Below, in pieces: positions 154 through 57,992 of a DNA stretch of 64,000 nucleotides. The position numbers and the translations under genes are program-made. The first letter of the stretch is position 1, and every line of letters starts with the position of its first letter. Source of the stretch: Octopus sinensis (lineage: Eukaryota); the NCBI RefSeq assembly GCF_006345805.1, contig NC_043010.1, positions 10,912,001 through 10,976,000 of the forward strand, given 5' to 3'. The notes under the pieces are model-generated. The model was not told the DNA's origin, did not search any database, and saw only the letters and a program-made list of their open reading frames with translations.

Positions 154-743
154 ACACACAAGGTAACCTTTCAGAGTTGTTATCACATTGGACAAAATGT
201 TAAGTGGCCCTTCTTCAAGCGCTTTATGCTCTGGGTCCAAATCCCACCAGGGTCAACTTTACCTTCAATCCCTTCAGACTTCATAAAATAAAGTACCATT
301 CAAGTACTGAGGTTGCAGTAATCAGCTTGACTCCCCCCTCCATCCAAATGTCGCTTACCTTAAACCCATCAATGAACCAGCATCCCTTCAGGAGGAATGT
401 TGCGATCTTAATGGAATCTTGGTCACCATGGAAACCAGTAACTGGCCTCTATGAGTCCTAGACTCAATAATATGACTTTGTCTGTGTGTTTGTGTGTAGT
501 CTTAGATCGACACAGTTTGGTGGCAGTAAAGGAGTATCACTACTAAACAGATGTTATAGTTCATTTCCTGTCTTCCATGAAAAACATGCCTGGCCATGGG
601 TAAGTTTTACCTTGCTTGAAAACAGCTGAGAGTAAGCAACAGAAGCATCCAAATGTGAAAAATCTGCCTCAGAGAAATTCCATCTGACTCATGCAAGCAT
701 GGAAAAGTTGTTAAATGATGATTATGACAATGATATATATATA

Positions 744-1310
744 TATACTTAAATATAAGAGAGTTAACGTTAACTGGTTAACTCTAATGCTAGAAATAGG
801 TCCTTATTCTGGTATAGCCACTATATATAGTGCACTAATTATTATGTGCACTACTCGTTTCCACTAAGTCTTACCATTCTTTTGGCAGGGAAGCTAAATC
901 ACAACTATGTATGCAATCGATTTGACCGCATGGGTATTTATCGCCCATGATGGTCTAATAAATTGTATCGAAAACAAATGCTGCTGATGATTTATAGATA
1001 AATATGTGAGTATAATTGCACATTATGTTGATAAAGAAACAATTGTTCAGCATTAATTTATCTTTTCGTTGTATTTCGCTTTCCATAAGTTGAAGGTAAT
1101 GTTATTTCTTTTGTGGAAACTACTTCGGTGGCTATACCAGAATAAGGAGCTATTTCTAGCACTAGAGTTAACCACTTAATGTTAACTCTCTTATATTTAC
1201 GTATAAATTTGTATTGTCTCCCTGTTTTTTTATGTGCTAGGCCACTTGGTGTTAAACTGATGGTATTATTAAATTAATATCTAATTTTTCACCCTCATTT
1301 ATGAATTTGT
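744..1310 (+). mobile_element. Hammerhead-containing non-coding element with an inverted terminal copy (Penelope-like pLTR remnant)
   Basis: Flanked by (TA)n. 744-821 is an inverted copy of 1128-1205. Contains the hammerhead at 977-1054. The 3' part is similar to the reverse complement of 14815-14905. Confidence 0.6.
977..1054 (+). ncRNA. Type I hammerhead ribozyme (best preserved copy)
   Basis: Stem I AAUGCUG/CAGCAUU (7 bp); core CUGAUGA 984-990; stem II UUUAU/AUAAA plus inner AUGUG/CACAU; GAAA 1036-1039; palindromic stem III ACAAUUGU; cleavage triplet GUU ending at 1047. Confidence 0.85.
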
Positions 1311-1354
1311 ATATATATATATCAAAAATAAGCAACAAGAATGACTCCGGTGAT

Positions 1355-1440
1355 TTGGTACAATTGTTTCGTACTACAACATTTTATTAAAAGCTGTAAG
1401 TATTGCAGCAGATTTATGATGCTGAGTACTCTTCAGCCAA
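1355..1440 (-). ncRNA. Type I hammerhead ribozyme
   Basis: Stem I UUGG/CCAA; core CUGAAGA; stem II GUACU-CAGCAU/AUGUUG-u-AGUAC; GAAA; palindromic stem III ACAAUUGU; GUA cleavage at 1359. Confidence 0.8.
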
Positions 1441-2574
1441 TTTATATAGGTTTTCCAATAATATAAAAGCTTTCAAATCAAGTAGTAACATCTTAGGGAA
1501 GGTAAATATACAGATACAAATATATGAAGCAATTCAGTGAATTCTCTTGTGAGAGATACCCCTTGGCTATAAGCTTGTAGAATCATTTTATACTTCACTC
1601 ATATAAAACATATGTTTAAAGCATTCTGTTTGTTTGTTATTGTGTGTGTTATGCATTGAGTTACGATATATATGCGAGCATGCATAATATATTTAAATAT
1701 AATTTTGCTATCTAATTACCTGATAATAATTGTAGTTGATCCATGGATTAACTTAACTCCATACCCGGAAGTTCTTCATACTGCCCTGTGTATCTTTCAC
1801 TCCAAATATGTCCACTGCTCTTGTGAGATGACATTGTGTCACAGGAGAAAAATGCATTTTCGTCTAGCCTTCTACCATCAGATGTCATAGCAACCTGTTG
1901 ACTATATATCTATTGAAAAAAAAAAAATTACATTTCAAAGTATATTATAATGTAAACCACAATGGTAGCAGAAATAATTAGAATAATTGAAGTTCAAATC
2001 CTATATATATAACTATATATTAGTGATTCTAAAGCTTTTATAAATTGCAATGTTGTTCAGAAAATTTGGCAAATTTCTCCTTTAAACAAATCAGGCAGCA
2101 GTCGATAGAGATAAATAGAGATTTTGCTTCAGTGCACCTAATTTTCAATGTGTCTAAATCTGGAATGCATAAAAATAACAATGTGTAAAGTTTTGCCAAA
2201 AAGACAATAGTAAATACAAGCGAAAATGTACAAATCTGTTGAAGCATGTGTAATAGGTGAAAACCCCCAATGAAAAGTGTCGTACAGAATGTGAGCTAGC
2301 ATCAGTAACTCTCTTCTGCAGTCTCTGGTCGATTGCTTTTACCAGAGAGATATTGCCGAATTATATTTCAAGGTTCCATGGATATTTGTTCCACCAGACT
2401 AAACAACAGATTGAAATTGAGAGAGAATCGTTGAATTAATTACTTCTTAGCTGAGAATAAGACAATTGACGTTTTTAGTAGAAGTAACTAACATGTGTGA
2501 GAAGCTACAGAGGAAGAAAAGAAGAATGACACAAAACCATTCAGCAAAGCATAAATCAGAGAAACATACATGAC

Positions 2575-9273: not shown

Positions 9274-11670
9274 TTGTGTAGCTATAGGCAGCTTTTTTAC
9301 CATTGTCGATGTCCTCCATTCATTTTCTAATTCATTTTCTGGATAAAGGTGACTTTGTGATTTTAATGAATGGGTAGTTTTATTTATCATTTCTTTCTGA
9401 TTTCCGGTGTTGATGACAGGGTTGTTAGTTCGAGAGATCAAATATTTCTCTTCGTTCTTTATCCGACTTGGCGTAACTATTTCAGCTCTGTGTGATGCAT
9501 TTTTACTATTGTTGCATCTGACAATGCAAATTGATATTGAAATGACAACTGCCATTGATACAGTTACTGCTGCTAAGGTAATAATTACCACCAAGCTCAG
9601 ATGTATTCTTTTATCACTATCAGAATGGGCGACTGCCATCTTCTCAGAAGTTTTGTTGCTAACTGTCAAAGTTATGGAGAGATTGCTTGCAGCTGACAAA
9701 ACTGGAATCCCACTGTCTTTGACAATGCACTGCAAATAATACAACCCAGCATCACTTTGATAAACAGTTCGGGAAAATGTTAACACTCCAGTATAAGGAT
9801 TGATTGTAAAAAGTTGTTTGTTATTACCACGGATTATTTTGTAACGAAGAAATGAATTCCTTGGACTGTCGTTATCTATAGCTTTCAAAGTGATAATTTT
9901 TTTGTTGTTATGGGGTTCATAATAAACATCCAAATTAAAGGGACTGATGCTCGGGAAAGTAAAATACGGAGCATTGTCATTTTCATCCATCACTTCAACT
10001 ACTACATTAACTGTGTTGTTTAGGGGAGGAATTCCGTTGTCTTTCACCAAAACTTGGAATACGTATATGTCTTGGCGCTCGTAATCCAAAGCTCTTTTCG
10101 TTAAAATAAATCCATTGTCGGTAATTTTGAAAGGTAAAAGTGTGGCATTTTTGCCATACAAAGAATAAGTAAGCTGTCCACCGGCCCCCATATCGGGGTC
10201 AGTGGCATTAACAAGTCCAACAGGGAAATTCACCTCTTCATTTTCATAGGTCAGAAATTTAAATGTCTTTTTTGTAAACTGGGGCTGTACATCGTTTACA
10301 TCGACAACCTTGATGAAAAATTTTTTCTCAGTCTGCAGAGGAGGATGTCCTCTATCCTGGCAAATTATTCTGACATTAAATAAATTCTTTGCTTCTCTGT
10401 CCACAGAATTCTTCAGAAGCACTTTGTACTCCTTAGTTTCCATGGTCCGTAATTGAAACCTGTCATGATCTAAAGAACATGTGACCTCTCCATTTCGTCC
10501 AATATCATTATCAGTTACCATGACATAAGCTATGAAACTTCCAACTTTAATTCCTTCTGATATCGTTACAGTGTTTTCTGAAAAGGCTGAAACAAAGTTG
10601 ACGTCTATATTTGGCGGGTTGTTCTGTTGGTTAGTGACTGTGATCAAAACTATAGCAGTAGAACGTAGCGGAGGAGTGCCACCATCTTGAGCATCAACAA
10701 AGAGCTTATAAGACAGTTTTTGAATGGAGGGAAACTGTTTTATAGCAAATATTTCTCCTGTGTTTTCTTCTACTTGGAAATAAGATTGAGCGAGGTCTGT
10801 TGTTTTAGAACTGAAATGGTATGATACTCTTCCATATCTTCCAGAATCTAAATCTTTGGAAGATAAGACAGCAACTGGTGTATTCATTTGATGAGTATGT
10901 TTGATAGAAACATTGTAAATACTCTGAGAAAATACAGGTGGATTGTCATTTTCGTCATTGACTGATATTTTTACGTTTAATAAACCTTCCTTGGATGGAA
11001 ATCCACCATCTTTGGACACAATTTGAACCATGTAGTTATCCCTTAATTCTCTATCGAGTTTGGCTTCCAGTGTTATTTCAAGTTTAGCTCGGCCGTCAAC
11101 TCTCTTAGAAGTAGACAAAGTGAAAGGTTCGTCTGAATTCTTACGAAGTTGATATGTGATTTGGGAATTCAGAATGCCAACATCCTTATCCACTGCATCT
11201 GGAATTGATTGAGATGTTCCTTCTTTATCATTTTCATCAAAAAAGAGTTCGATTTGTTTATCTGGAAATTTTGGTTCATGATCATTAACATCTTTGATAA
11301 AGACCTTAATTTTTAAAATCCTCATGAAAGTTCCTGCTTGGTGAACTGCAATTTTGATAGTTTTAAAACACTCTACATTATAAATACAGAGTGTTTCAGC
11401 ATCCAGGACTTTAGCTGTGTACAACTTTCCTGTTCGCGAAACATTGAAGAGGTCTGAATCGCTTGTAGCGCTCTGCTGTAACTGACTAAATCTAATTAAG
11501 TCAGGATTTTCAACAGGTATACTGTCCAATAGTTGTGTGTCAGCTGCAATATCACCGACGTAAGTACCCGGACTTTTTTCCTCTTCAACATAATAAGTTA
11601 GTTTCCCGCTCAGGCACTGAGGGAACAAAGCAAACACTATATATACCAATACTAACATATTTATACTCAT
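9274..11670 (-). CDS. PCDH: Protocadherin (cephalopod-type), large coding exon: signal peptide, 6 cadherin (EC) repeats, TM helix, proximal cytoplasmic tail
   Basis: 831-aa ORF 11670..9175. It has a hydrophobic N-terminus, EC1 LDAETLC-x5-C, linkers DVNDHEP, DENDNPP, NQQNNPP, DVNDVQP and DENDNAP, motifs LDRE/VDRE/LDYE and DGGxP, and TM LVVIITLAAVTVSMAVVISISICIV. A consensus phase-0 donor CAA|GTGAGT at 9274/9273 suggests that the last 32 residues of the ORF (to 9175) are intron read-through. Confidence 0.95.
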
Positions 11671-24346: not shown

Positions 24347-24790
24347 CATCATCATCATCATCATCATCGTTTAACGTCGGTTTTCTGCGCTAGCACGGGT
24401 TGGATGGTTCGACAGGGGTCTGGGAAGCCAGAAGGCTGCACCAGGCCTCAGTCTGATCTGGCAGAGTTTCTACAGCTGGATGCCCTTCCTAATGCCAACC
24501 ACTCCGTGAGTGTAGTGGGTGCTTTTTATGTGCCACCGACACAGGTGCCAGACGATGCTGGTGAACGGCCACACTCGGATGGTGTTTTTTTGTGCCACCA
24601 ACACAGGTGCCAGATGAGGCTGGCACACGACCACGCTCGGATGGTGTTTTTTACGTGCCCACAGCATGGAGGCCAGTCGATGCGGTACTGGCTACAGCCA
24701 CGTTCAGATGGTTTTCCTATGTGCCACCGGTACTGATACCACAAAAATACAATTTCCATTGATGTTCATCGATTTTGATTTGATTTGATT
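24347..24790 (-). mobile_element. Retroposon family C, long copy
   Basis: (CAT)n tail at left, 3-4 internal units, (ATTTG)n at right. Confidence 0.75.
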
Positions 24791-25225: not shown

Positions 25226-25567
25226 TCTTCTTCTTCTTCTTCTTAGCACTCCGTCGGTTACAACGACGAGGGTCCCAGCTGATACGATCAACGGAACAGC
25301 TTGCTCGTGAAATTAACGTGCAAGTGACTGAGCAATCCACAGACACAAGTACCCTTAACGTAGTTCACAGGGAGATTCATCGTGACACAGAGTGTGACAA
25401 GGCCGGCCCTTTTGAAATACAGGTACAACTCATTTTTGCCAGCTGAGTGGACTGGAGCAACGTGAAATAAAGTGTCTTGCTCAAGGACACAACGCATTGC
25501 AGGAATCGAACTCACGACCTTACAATCGTCAGTCGAATGCCCTAACCACTAAGCCACGCGCCTTCAC
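25226..25567 (-). mobile_element. tRNA-derived SINE with a (GAA)n tail
   Basis: Head like 23162; 3' half shared with 59826-60008. Confidence 0.8.
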
Positions 25568-26611: not shown

Positions 26612-26920
26612 GTCATCATCATCATTATCATCATCATTTAGCGTCCGCTTTCCATGCTAGCATGGGTTGGACAGTTCAACTGGGGTCTGGGAAGCCAGAA
26701 GGCTGCACCAGGCCCAGTCTGATCTGGCAATGTTTCTACGGCTGGATGCCCTTCCTGACGCCAACCACTCCATGAGTGTAGTGGGTGCTTTTTACGTGCC
26801 AGACGAGGCTGGCAACGGCCACGATCGGATGGTGCTTTTTACGTGCCACCGGCACGGGGGCCAGGTGAGGCTGGCAATGGCCTCAATCAGATGGTGCTTT
26901 TTATGTGCCACCGGCATGAC
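26612..26920 (-). mobile_element. Retroposon family C
   Basis: Match to family C. Confidence 0.75.
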
Positions 26921-46187: not shown

Positions 46188-46535
46188 CATCATCATCATC
46201 ATCATCGTTTAACGTCCATTTTCCGCGCTAGCACGGGTTGGACGGTTCGACAAGGGTCTAGGAAGCCAGGGGCTGCACCAGACTCCAGTCTTATCTGGCA
46301 GTGTTTCTACAGTTGGATGCCCTTCCTAACGCCAACCACTCCGCGAGTGTAGTGGGTGCTTTTTATGTGCCACCTGCACAGGTGCCAGGGGAGTCTGGCA
46401 TCAGCCACGATCGGTTGGTGCTTTTAACGTGCCATGGCACGGAAGCCAGTCAAGGTGGAGCTGGCATCGGCCACGTTCGGATGGTGCTTTTTATGTGCCA
46501 CCGGCACAGAAGCCAGTCGAGGCGGCGCTGGCATC
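46188..46535 (-). mobile_element. Retroposon family C
   Basis: Match to family C, with about 3 internal units. Confidence 0.75.
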
Positions 46536-46735
46536 AGCATACATGCATTCACACACACACACATTGGATTATGGCCATGCTGGGGTACTGCCATAAAGGG
46601 TTTTAGTTGAGCAAATCAAACTGAGTACATATTTTTTGGAGGTGAAATGTTATTGATTATATGTATTTGCTCAAGCAGCAAACATAAGATGGCTGAGTAG
46701 ACCTGAGGTCTAAAAAGATAAATAAATAAAATATA

Positions 46736-57619: not shown

Positions 57620-57992
57620 AAAAAATCAAATCAAAACAAATCAAAATAGAGGCCGTTCACCAGCCTCATCTGGCACCTGTGTCGGTGGCACATAAAAACA
57701 CCATCCAAGCGTGGCCGTCTGCCAGCCTCGTCTGGCACCTGTGTCGGTGGCACATAAAAAACACCATCCGAGCGTGGCCGTTCGCCAGCCTCGTCTGGCA
57801 CCTGTGTCGGTGGCACATAAAATCACCCACTACACTCACGGAGTGGTTGGCGTTAGGAAGGGCATCCAGCTGTAGAAACACTGCCAGATCTGACTGGACT
57901 GGTGCAGCCTTTGGGCTCCCCAGACCCCAGTTGAACCGTCCAACCCATGCTAGCATGGAAAGCGGACGTTAAATGATGATGATGATGATGAT
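57620..57992 (+). mobile_element. Retroposon family C with (GAT)n tail and internal ~62-bp tandem units
   Basis: ggcgttaggaagggcatccagctgtagaaac...ggacgttaaatgatgatg. Related copies at about 3383-3480, 12840-12981, 29740-29887 and 32595-32873 (+), and 6065-6229, 39662-39815 and 58573-58768 (-). Confidence 0.8.

What the first reader, a model, noticed from the sequence alone, without database searches (positions are those of the whole stretch)
977..1054. Apparently intact hammerhead: best candidate for an activity test
Seen: all core nucleotides, a perfect 7-bp stem I, a paired stem II, palindromic ACAAUUGU and a GUU site at 1047. The 10.1-11.1 pair is U-A rather than the usual G-C, which may lower the rate (established for hammerheads). 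Activity itself is inference.
Basis: partly seen in the sequence, partly recalled or inferred. Interest (0 to 1): 0.75.

Follow-up and report, generated by a model that had tools for sequence, protein, structure and literature searches.

The report
Hammerhead in ageing octopus retrozyme copy
This is a real hammerhead self-cutting RNA motif inside one ageing copy of a small protein-less repeat in an octopus genome; it points backwards relative to the protocadherin gene beside it and is predicted to need a partner molecule and to misfold easily, so it is likely an ordinary jumping-element relic and likely not the best copy to test.

Summary
The motif is there as described, and its stems are kept by compensatory changes across 17 related sequences, so it is a real type I hammerhead. 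It lies in a ~493-bp non-coding repeat (825-1306) with an inverted arm, flanked by (TA)n, with at least 84 copies. Insertion shapes are Penelope-like: a non-LTR retrozyme, a kind this scan has reported before on other DNA of this genome. 'Best candidate' is not supported. The copy is solo, carries 11 rare changes in 470 sites, has a 2-bp palindromic stem III (dimer type), U10.1-A11.1 and GUU, and the proposed 960-1070 transcript is predicted to slip register and bury CUGA (0.65 against 0.04). It is antisense to a protocadherin whose stop codon lies 700 nt away. Sister families with G10.1-C11.1, GUC and tandem arrays are better test objects. Unexpected neighbour: a second hammerhead (1436-1359, minus strand) lies sense, 310 nt past that stop, and holds the only canonical poly(A) signal between the stop and position 601, 24 nt before its cut site; its clade keeps A(A/T)TAAA there in 36 of 39 sequences. 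Cleavage is untested.

The parts
977..1054 (+). Type I hammerhead motif (the finding): stem I 977-983/1048-1054, core 984-990 and 1036-1039, long stem II 991-1035, 2-bp stem III with palindrome 1039-1046, predicted cut after U1047
825..1306 (+). Nearly full monomer (482 of ~493 nt) of a non-coding dispersed repeat; two fixed 3' ends in the family, ~1204 and ~1306 (a ~100-nt tail); strongly self-paired (z -6.0)
745..821 (-). Inverted, 5'-truncated second arm, a copy of 1128-~1204; shares the minority allele T1182 with the main arm
733..744 (.). (TA)n flank on the left
1310..1322 (.). (TA)n flank on the right, shared with the second element
1323..1524 (-). 5'-truncated copy of a second, different hammerhead repeat family (2,180 first-look candidates, best copies 92-97% alike), tail-to-tail with the first
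1355..1440 (-). Second type I hammerhead: CUGAAGA 1436-1430, G10.1-C11.1, same ACAAUUGU, GUA with predicted cut after 1359, 4-bp stem I; AATAAA at 1388-1383 inside stem II; sense to the protocadherin
1748..1909 (-). Last coding exon and stop codon of an octopus protocadherin (52 of 53 residues identical to P0001)
9274..11670 (-). Large first coding exon of the same protocadherin (cadherin repeats)

Best explanation
The motif is a type I hammerhead carried by a solo, ageing copy of a ~493-nt non-coding repeat that was likely inserted by a Penelope-type (Neptune-like) reverse transcriptase/endonuclease borrowed in trans; the ribozyme likely serves the element's own RNA cycle, likely as a dimer, and this copy likely has weak activity and no role for the host. 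Steps: (shown) motif, repeat family, insertion shape, (TA)n target, antisense position to the protocadherin; (shown across the clade) compensatory changes in stems I and II with invariant core and palindrome; (inferred from PMC4209133 and PMC7229834) tandem source copies are transcribed, two hammerheads pair through ACAAUUGU to build an 8-bp stem III and cut after N17, giving unit-length RNA that is circularised; (inferred) the borrowed enzyme nicks (TA)n, copies the circle or an uncut multimer from two fixed start points, reads through the cut site and the monomer junction, and leaves two head-to-head 5'-truncated arms; (predicted) the window copy alone cuts little, because of the 2-bp stem III, the slipped register, U10.1-A11.1 and U17.
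For: Covariation in 17 clade sequences: 90% of cells paired; 6 of 7 stem I pairs and 6 of 9 lower stem II pairs change on both sides; 0 of 500 shuffles reach the score; slid controls 31-45% paired; RNAalifold finds the same stems unaided. Family: 84 exact 19-mer copies, control 0; 81 loci examined, 42 with both orientations; of 173 arm ends 65 stop at ~1306 and 50 at ~1204 before TA, 33 run into the next monomer, 25 other; of 41 two-orientation loci 27 have one arm at each end, 2 have both at one end, 11 have one arm ending elsewhere, 1 is not head-to-head. These are the PLE traits listed in PMC8557442. An abundant autonomous Neptune-type PLE (RT PF00078, GIY-YIG, ~780-aa frames) shows the same two ends, a 45-nt tail and TA target. 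Tandem arrays exist (L080 period ~490, L186 ~533, L229 492-493). Monomer self-pairing z -6.0, 0 of 100 shuffles. Stem III hairpin +2.4, palindrome duplex -6.4 kcal/mol. Ageing: 11 of 470 rare changes; 5 differences between the arms over the ~77 shared element positions.
Against: No cleavage, circular RNA or strand-specific read was seen; only assembled contigs of runs guessed to be RNA were available. No cognate autonomous partner was found: the PLE copies L113-L142 do not align with the monomer and none of 30 loci with the tail 15-mer continues from the tail into a PLE frame. Nearest-neighbour folding ignores Mg2+ and tertiary contacts and penalises all 13 hammerheads tried (2.3-5.7 kcal/mol; focal 4.9), so it ranks poorly. 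U4 is C in 12 of 82 family copies and in a young tandem sister family, so some lineages spread with an altered core. The 17 aligned sequences are related and were picked by a pattern that fixes the core and palindrome, so invariance of those letters is built in.
Confidence: 0.8

Rival explanations
1. The window copy is an efficient ribozyme as it stands (monomer or easy trans dimer) and is a good test object.
For: Core, 7-bp stem I and palindrome are unchanged. Mussel retrozyme hammerheads without canonical tertiary nucleotides cut at ~0.1 per min, and an axolotl motif with U.U at the base of helix II reached 22% as a monomer (PMC7229834). GUU is listed among active NUH sites (PMC3138052). A crude dimer sum is near zero or favourable (+0.2 at 37 C, -1.6 kcal/mol at 20 C).
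Against: Slipped register favoured in 960-1070 and 825-1306; with U17 the palindrome extends to 10 nt, which would pair A14 with U17; single PLE-type motifs showed no or low cleavage (PMC4209133); 8 of 9 predicted Xenopus retrozyme dimers did not cut (bioRxiv 10.64898/2026.07.22.740005).
Confidence: 0.15
2. The composite insertion now shapes the 3' end of the protocadherin mRNA: the neighbouring sense hammerhead supplies the poly(A) signal and a cut site 24 nt later, and the focal element, read antisense, adds a long double-stranded stem to any read-through 3' UTR.
For: Stop at 1750-1748; the only AATAAA or ATTAAA on that strand between the stop and 601 is at 1388-1383, in stem II of the second hammerhead; 36 of 39 distinct long-stem sequences keep AATAAA (30) or ATTAAA (6) 24-26 nt before the cut; 2 of the 3 misses are unrelated families. 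One contig of run X1 matches 846-1078 with no difference, private alleles included. Precedent: Clec2 3' UTR hammerhead (PMC6765202).
Against: The extent of the 3' UTR is unknown. The X1 contig has depth 2.5, no strand, may be DNA, and if it is protocadherin RNA it shows read-through past both signal and cut site. The second hammerhead is solo, has a 4-bp stem I and is predicted to misfold (0.01; +4.1 kcal/mol dimer sum). The hexamer lies in A/T-rich sequence and may be structural. With thousands of copies, a 3' UTR landing is expected by chance.
Confidence: 0.12
3. The element is the 3' end (pseudo-LTR) of an autonomous Penelope-like element, 5'-truncated, not a self-standing retrozyme monomer.
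For: Same insertion geometry as autonomous PLEs; PLE frames lie within the fetched flanks of 8 of 81 family loci.
Against: Wherever copies extend upstream of 825 within the element they continue into the monomer's own tail, never into a frame; the nearby PLE fragments that were read (L039, L042, L046, L050) have their own 3' ends and are separate insertions.
Confidence: 0.05
4. Chance look-alike or misread small RNA (for example a C/D snoRNA, given UGAUGA).
For: Rfam's only match at 977-1054 is snoR21, 20.3 bits against a cut-off of 45, E 4.5; no folding z-score.
Against: Covariation; thousands of same-plan motifs against controls of 8 and 13.
Confidence: 0.01

Closest known systems
Metazoan non-LTR retrozymes (Cervera and de la Pena 2020, PMC7229834, seen: passages and the mussel section; Li, Clavereau and Pollet 2026, bioRxiv 10.64898/2026.07.22.740005, seen: parts 1-3 of 5, supplements closed)
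   Same: Protein-free, low-GC, self-paired monomer with one type I hammerhead; tandem arrays and solo monomers; short stem III with palindromic loop; co-occurs with autonomous PLEs.
   Different: Monomer 493 nt (above the 170-400 nt of the 2020 paper, inside the 51-972 nt of the 2026 preprint); 45-nt stem II; position 10.1-11.1 not fixed as G-C; GUU site; this locus is a solo monomer with an inverted arm, so not 'active' by the two-unit criterion of the preprint; circular RNA not shown.
Hammerheads in pseudo-LTRs of EN+ Penelope-like elements, Neptune type (Cervera and De la Pena 2014, PMC4209133, seen: parts 1-2 of 4; Craig et al. 2021, PMC8557442, seen: passages)
   Same: Palindromic small helix III, large helix II, 5' truncation, partial tandems, inverted 5'-truncated arm, tail at one end only, microsatellite target.
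   Different: No RT/GIY-YIG frame; tail ~100 nt instead of 30-40; 7-bp helix I; lacks the highly conserved G10.1-C11.1 of the published minimal motifs; cognate autonomous element not identified.
Clec2 3' UTR hammerhead of mammals (seen: passage in review PMC6765202)
   Same: Applies only to the neighbouring minus-strand motif: a hammerhead downstream of a host stop codon, on the sense strand.
   Different: There the cut lies before the poly(A) signal and activity is shown; here the signal lies inside stem II before the cut, the motif is a recent transposon copy, and nothing is tested.

Membership tests
Type I hammerhead ribozyme | Core C3U4G5A6N7G8A9, G12A13A14, A15.1-U16.1, H17 | tested here: met
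   984-990, 1036-1039, 1046, U1047; consensus as written in PMC7151607
Type I hammerhead ribozyme | Helices I and II kept as structure, open at helix I | tested here: met
   Compensatory changes in 6 of 7 stem I and 6 of 9 lower stem II pairs over 17 sequences
Type I hammerhead ribozyme | Stable helix III as a monomer | tested here: not met
   2 bp plus AAUU, +2.4 kcal/mol; this is the known dimer type (PMC4209133), so it lowers 'active alone', not membership
Type I hammerhead ribozyme | G10.1-C11.1 (typical, not obligatory) | tested here: not met
   U-A here; G-C in 5 of 17 clade sequences, U.U in 8
Type I hammerhead ribozyme | Loop 1-loop 2 tertiary contact | not tested
   A conserved apical GUAWAA-type loop and AAU after stem I were seen but no contact was modelled
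Type I hammerhead ribozyme | Match to an Rfam hammerhead model | tested here: not met
   No hit; the long stem II and tiny stem III probably fall outside the models (inference)
Type I hammerhead ribozyme | Site-specific self-cleavage | not testable with these tools
   Needs a bench assay or raw stranded reads; only contigs were held
Metazoan non-LTR retrozyme | Short non-coding monomer with one type I hammerhead | tested here: met
   493-nt period; only a 71-aa stop-to-stop frame overlaps it
Metazoan non-LTR retrozyme | Tandem repeats of the monomer | tested here: met
   Family loci L080, L042, L043 and sister arrays L186, L229; this locus itself is a solo monomer
Metazoan non-LTR retrozyme | Highly self-paired RNA | tested here: met
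   z -6.0, 0 of 100 shuffles
Metazoan non-LTR retrozyme | Expression as linear and circular RNA | tested here: inconclusive
   Contigs of four runs guessed to be RNA cover the monomer; one joint goes back from 1308 to 889 (fits a tandem or a circle); no strand, no ends
EN+ Penelope-like element (autonomous) | ORF with RT and GIY-YIG | tested here: not met
   None in the monomer or joined to it
Penelope-mobilised non-autonomous element | 5' truncation, partial tandems, inverted arm, one-sided tail, microsatellite target | tested here: met
Penelope-mobilised non-autonomous element | Cognate autonomous partner sharing the ends | tested here: inconclusive
   No alignment to L113-L142; only a short likeness by eye at the tail end

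The most novel reading that the evidence does not exclude
A whole clade of octopus hammerhead repeats builds a polyadenylation signal into stem II, 24-26 nt before the ribozyme cut, so that poly(A) cleavage and self-cleavage compete for the same spot of the RNA; one such copy, back-to-back with the focal element, has landed in the 3' UTR of a protocadherin and now sets or destabilises the end of that neural adhesion mRNA. Not found in print in searches (listings; passages of PMC6765202).
Probability: 0.12. Interest if true: 0.7.

Novelty: new member of a known kind. Interest (0 to 1): 0.3.

Why it matters
As given, little: one of thousands of same-plan hammerheads in this genome (2,138 and 4,995 pattern matches, overlapping ranges), of a described class. 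The value is practical. The clade is a natural series that varies 10.1-11.1 (G-C, U-A, U.U, C.A), N17 (C, A, U) and U4 on one scaffold, which lets one ask how much ribozyme activity a retrozyme needs in order to spread. The neighbour makes a simple, testable case of a transposon hammerhead plus poly(A) signal just past the stop codon of a cephalopod protocadherin.

Tried and rejected
Rfam: no hammerhead hit; snoR21 (E 4.5) and TD-2 (E 0.73) rejected as chance. MITE reading of the 87-bp inverted repeat rejected: arm lengths vary from copy to copy and the two arms end at different fixed points. Cognate autonomous PLE not found; four adjacent PLE fragments were read and are separate insertions. 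Pile-up of 5' starts at the cut site: 0 of 122 starts at 1045-1052, not usable because loci were chosen for holding 1036-1054. Expression: no RNA holder listed on record; 20 of 24 listed runs hold part of the stretch, none half of its words; flat contig depth over 1047 cannot show cleavage or its absence; no cover on 650-831 in any of the 4 runs is no evidence. The RNA extent of the protocadherin 3' UTR could not be read from runs and stays open. No paralogous empty site of the 3' region: 1 match, itself. The GTRAGT in the apical part of stem II was considered as a splice donor; it lies in a paired stem and loop, and no spliced joint appeared; left open. Stem I probabilities printed were computed at 20 C by a carried-over setting; one search replaces them. 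The consensus fold was uninformative (unrelated rows included). Lunse et al. 2016 (PMC5785218) is not held; seen only as a reference title. Earlier notes near this place or like this sequence: none.

Full report
Observation. The 78 nt at 977-1054 read AAUGCUG / CUGAUGA / 45-nt stem II / GAAA / CAAUUG / UU / CAGCAUU. With stem I of at least 5 and stem II of at least 3 pairs it is the only hit in 64 kb, and 0 of 40 shuffled windows gave one. Rfam does not call it and its folding energy is ordinary (z -0.58), so the motif had to be tested by comparison.

Is it a real hammerhead? Pattern searches of the own genome found 2,138 motifs with a short stem II and 4,995 with a long one (ranges overlap; controls 8 and 13) that share CUGANGA, GAAA and the ACAAUUGU palindrome. 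From the first 100 rows of each list I took the sequences that share the focal stem II apex; they align with the monomer at 58-80%. Seventeen went into an alignment; L173, L174 and L185 (deleted or duplicated cores) and near-duplicates were left out. On the hammerhead structure 90% of cells pair, 6 of 7 stem I pairs and 6 of 9 lower stem II pairs change on both sides, 0 of 500 shuffles reach the covariation score, and slid structures pair 31-45%. RNAalifold recovers stems I and II unaided. The rows are related, and core and palindrome were fixed by the search, but the stems were not. The fold is under selection in the clade. Pair 10.1-11.1 is the exception: G-C 5, U-A 2, G-U 1, U.U 8, C.A 1. 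So U-A is a lineage trait, not damage. That G10.1-C11.1 and GUC or GUA give faster cleavage than U-A and GUU is recalled knowledge; PMC4209133 calls G10.1-C11.1 highly conserved, and PMC3138052 lists GUU as cleavable.

What carries it. The motif lies in a repeat: an 87-bp inverted repeat frames it, and the stretch matches many places at 86-96% (40 of 900 candidates scored). An exact 19-mer occurs 84 times. In 81 loci (30, 51; a few overlap or are duplicates) the unit is a 493-nt monomer whose upstream continuation is its own tail. Of 173 arm ends, 65 stop at ~1306 and 50 at ~1204 in front of (TA)n, 33 run on into the next monomer, 25 do otherwise; 42 loci hold both orientations. The window locus is typical: left arm 745-821 ends at ~1204, right arm 825-1306 carries the tail, TA on both sides. 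5' truncation, partial tandems, an inverted 5'-truncated copy, a tail at one end and microsatellite targets are the Penelope-like traits described in PMC8557442 (passages). The genome has an abundant Neptune-type PLE (RT and GIY-YIG, 24,451 first-look candidates) with the same two-ended, TA-targeted pattern and its own U3-A8 hammerhead, but it does not align with the monomer, so the partner enzyme is not identified. The monomer has no coding frame of note, is strongly self-paired (z -6.0), and forms tandems in the family and its sisters. This fits metazoan non-LTR retrozymes (PMC7229834; bioRxiv 10.64898/2026.07.22.740005). The scan has reported this kind on other DNA of this genome many times.

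How it likely works. Inferred from those papers: tandem source copies are transcribed; a 2-bp stem III is unstable (+2.4 kcal/mol) but two palindromes form an 8-bp duplex (-6.4), so cutting needs a dimer; unit-length RNA is circularised; a borrowed PLE enzyme copies it into (TA)n. Inserted copies read through the cut site and the monomer junction, which fits a circle or an uncut multimer as template and not a cut linear monomer.

Is this copy a good test object? It is ageing: 11 of 470 positions differ from at least 94% of other arms, one of them (C1021) in distal stem II, and its two arms differ at 5 of ~77 shared positions. 41 of 82 sampled copies are as intact (biased sample), and staying intact at 41 key sites has a 38% chance at this divergence, so intactness shows no selection on this locus. 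Stem I repeats GCUG, so CUGA can pair with CAG three nucleotides out of register: in the proposed 960-1070 transcript 0.65 against 0.04 at 37 C, in 825-1306 0.34 against 0.10, in 970-1061 0.12 against 0.39. Ten sister sequences with short flanks give stem I 0.14-1.00, seven of them 0.89 or more. With U17 the palindrome grows to 10 nt and could pair A14 with U17. These models ignore Mg2+ and tertiary contacts and penalise all 13 motifs tried, so they rank and do not decide. In print, single PLE-type motifs cut little or not at all and 8 of 9 predicted Xenopus dimers did not cut, while mussel motifs did.

Host context. The window holds an octopus protocadherin on the minus strand: exon 1 at 11670-9274 and the last coding exon at 1909-1748, mapped with P0001. 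The focal hammerhead is ~700 nt past the stop and antisense, so it cannot cut that mRNA in cis. One contig of run X1 (guessed RNA, depth 2.5) equals 846-1078 without a difference, private alleles included, and spans 1047; strand and nature are unknown.

The neighbour. A looser scan found a second hammerhead on the minus strand, 1436-1359, with G10.1-C11.1, GUA and a 4-bp stem I, in a 5'-truncated copy of another family that shares the (TA)n (3 rare changes in 215 positions). It is sense to the protocadherin, ~310 nt past the stop. The only AATAAA or ATTAAA on that strand between the stop and 601 lies in its stem II, 24 nt before the cut. Among 39 distinct 54-64-nt stem II sequences have AATAAA and 6 ATTAAA ending 24-26 nt before the cut; of the 3 misses, 2 are unrelated families; none of the 17 focal-clade rows has it. 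AATAAA and ATTAAA as the two main poly(A) signals is recalled knowledge. Against a role: the UTR end is unknown, the motif is solo and predicted to misfold (0.01), and the hexamer may be structural. Searches listed no paper on it (listings; passages of PMC6765202).

Verdict. Observation confirmed; interpretation partly supported. A real but ordinary hammerhead in a solo, ageing, Penelope-mobilised retrozyme copy: new member of a known kind, interest 0.3. The boldest reading not excluded concerns the neighbour (probability 0.12, interest 0.7). Papers seen: PMC4209133 parts 1-2 of 4; PMC7229834 passages and section 14; the 2026 preprint parts 1-3 of 5; passages of PMC8557442, PMC6765202, PMC7151607 and PMC3138052.

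Noticed in passing
window 1355-1440 (-): Second hammerhead, sense to the protocadherin and ~310 nt past its stop, with AATAAA inside stem II 24 nt before the cut; the hexamer (or ATTAAA) is kept in 36 of 39 long-stem sequences.
   Followed up: partly
window 1748-1909 and 9274-11670 (-): Two-exon octopus protocadherin; exon 1 identical to P0001 over the region searched, one residue differs in the last exon.
   Followed up: partly
L229:1860-3420, L230, L231: Young sister family in near-identical 492-493-bp tandems whose hammerhead core reads CCGAAGA (U4 to C) with U.U at 10.1-11.1; U4C also in 12 of 82 copies of the focal family.
   Followed up: no
L113-L142 (for example L042:288-2860): Young autonomous Neptune-type PLE with open frames of ~780 aa, a U3-A8 core-variant hammerhead with palindrome ACCGGU, two 3' ends 45 nt apart and TA target; its tail end resembles the tail end of the focal clade by eye.
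   Followed up: partly
L186:2708-6541: Seven-unit, ~533-bp tandem and inverted array with G10.1-C11.1 and GUC in every unit: a better natural dimer substrate.
   Followed up: no
window 1005-1020 and clade alignment A1: Apex of stem II keeps GTRAGT followed by an A-rich loop in nearly all clade members; it could be a tertiary-contact loop or a splice donor as in other PLE pseudo-LTRs.
   Followed up: no
window 735-1214: On either strand the two arms can form a ~80-bp near-perfect duplex, a possible editing substrate if the 3' UTR reads through; the one matching contig does not cover the arms.
   Followed up: no
L039, L042, L046, L050, L062, L098-L100, L134, L183: Different hammerhead repeats and PLE fragments often share one (TA)n tract, as in the window.
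   Followed up: no
window 25491-25561 (-): tRNA-like match at 30.8 bits, probably the head of a SINE.
   Followed up: no
window 24518-24652, 26798-26916, 46355-46538, 57651-57822: Recurrent 62-66-bp GC-rich tandem unit, a dispersed repeat.
   Followed up: no
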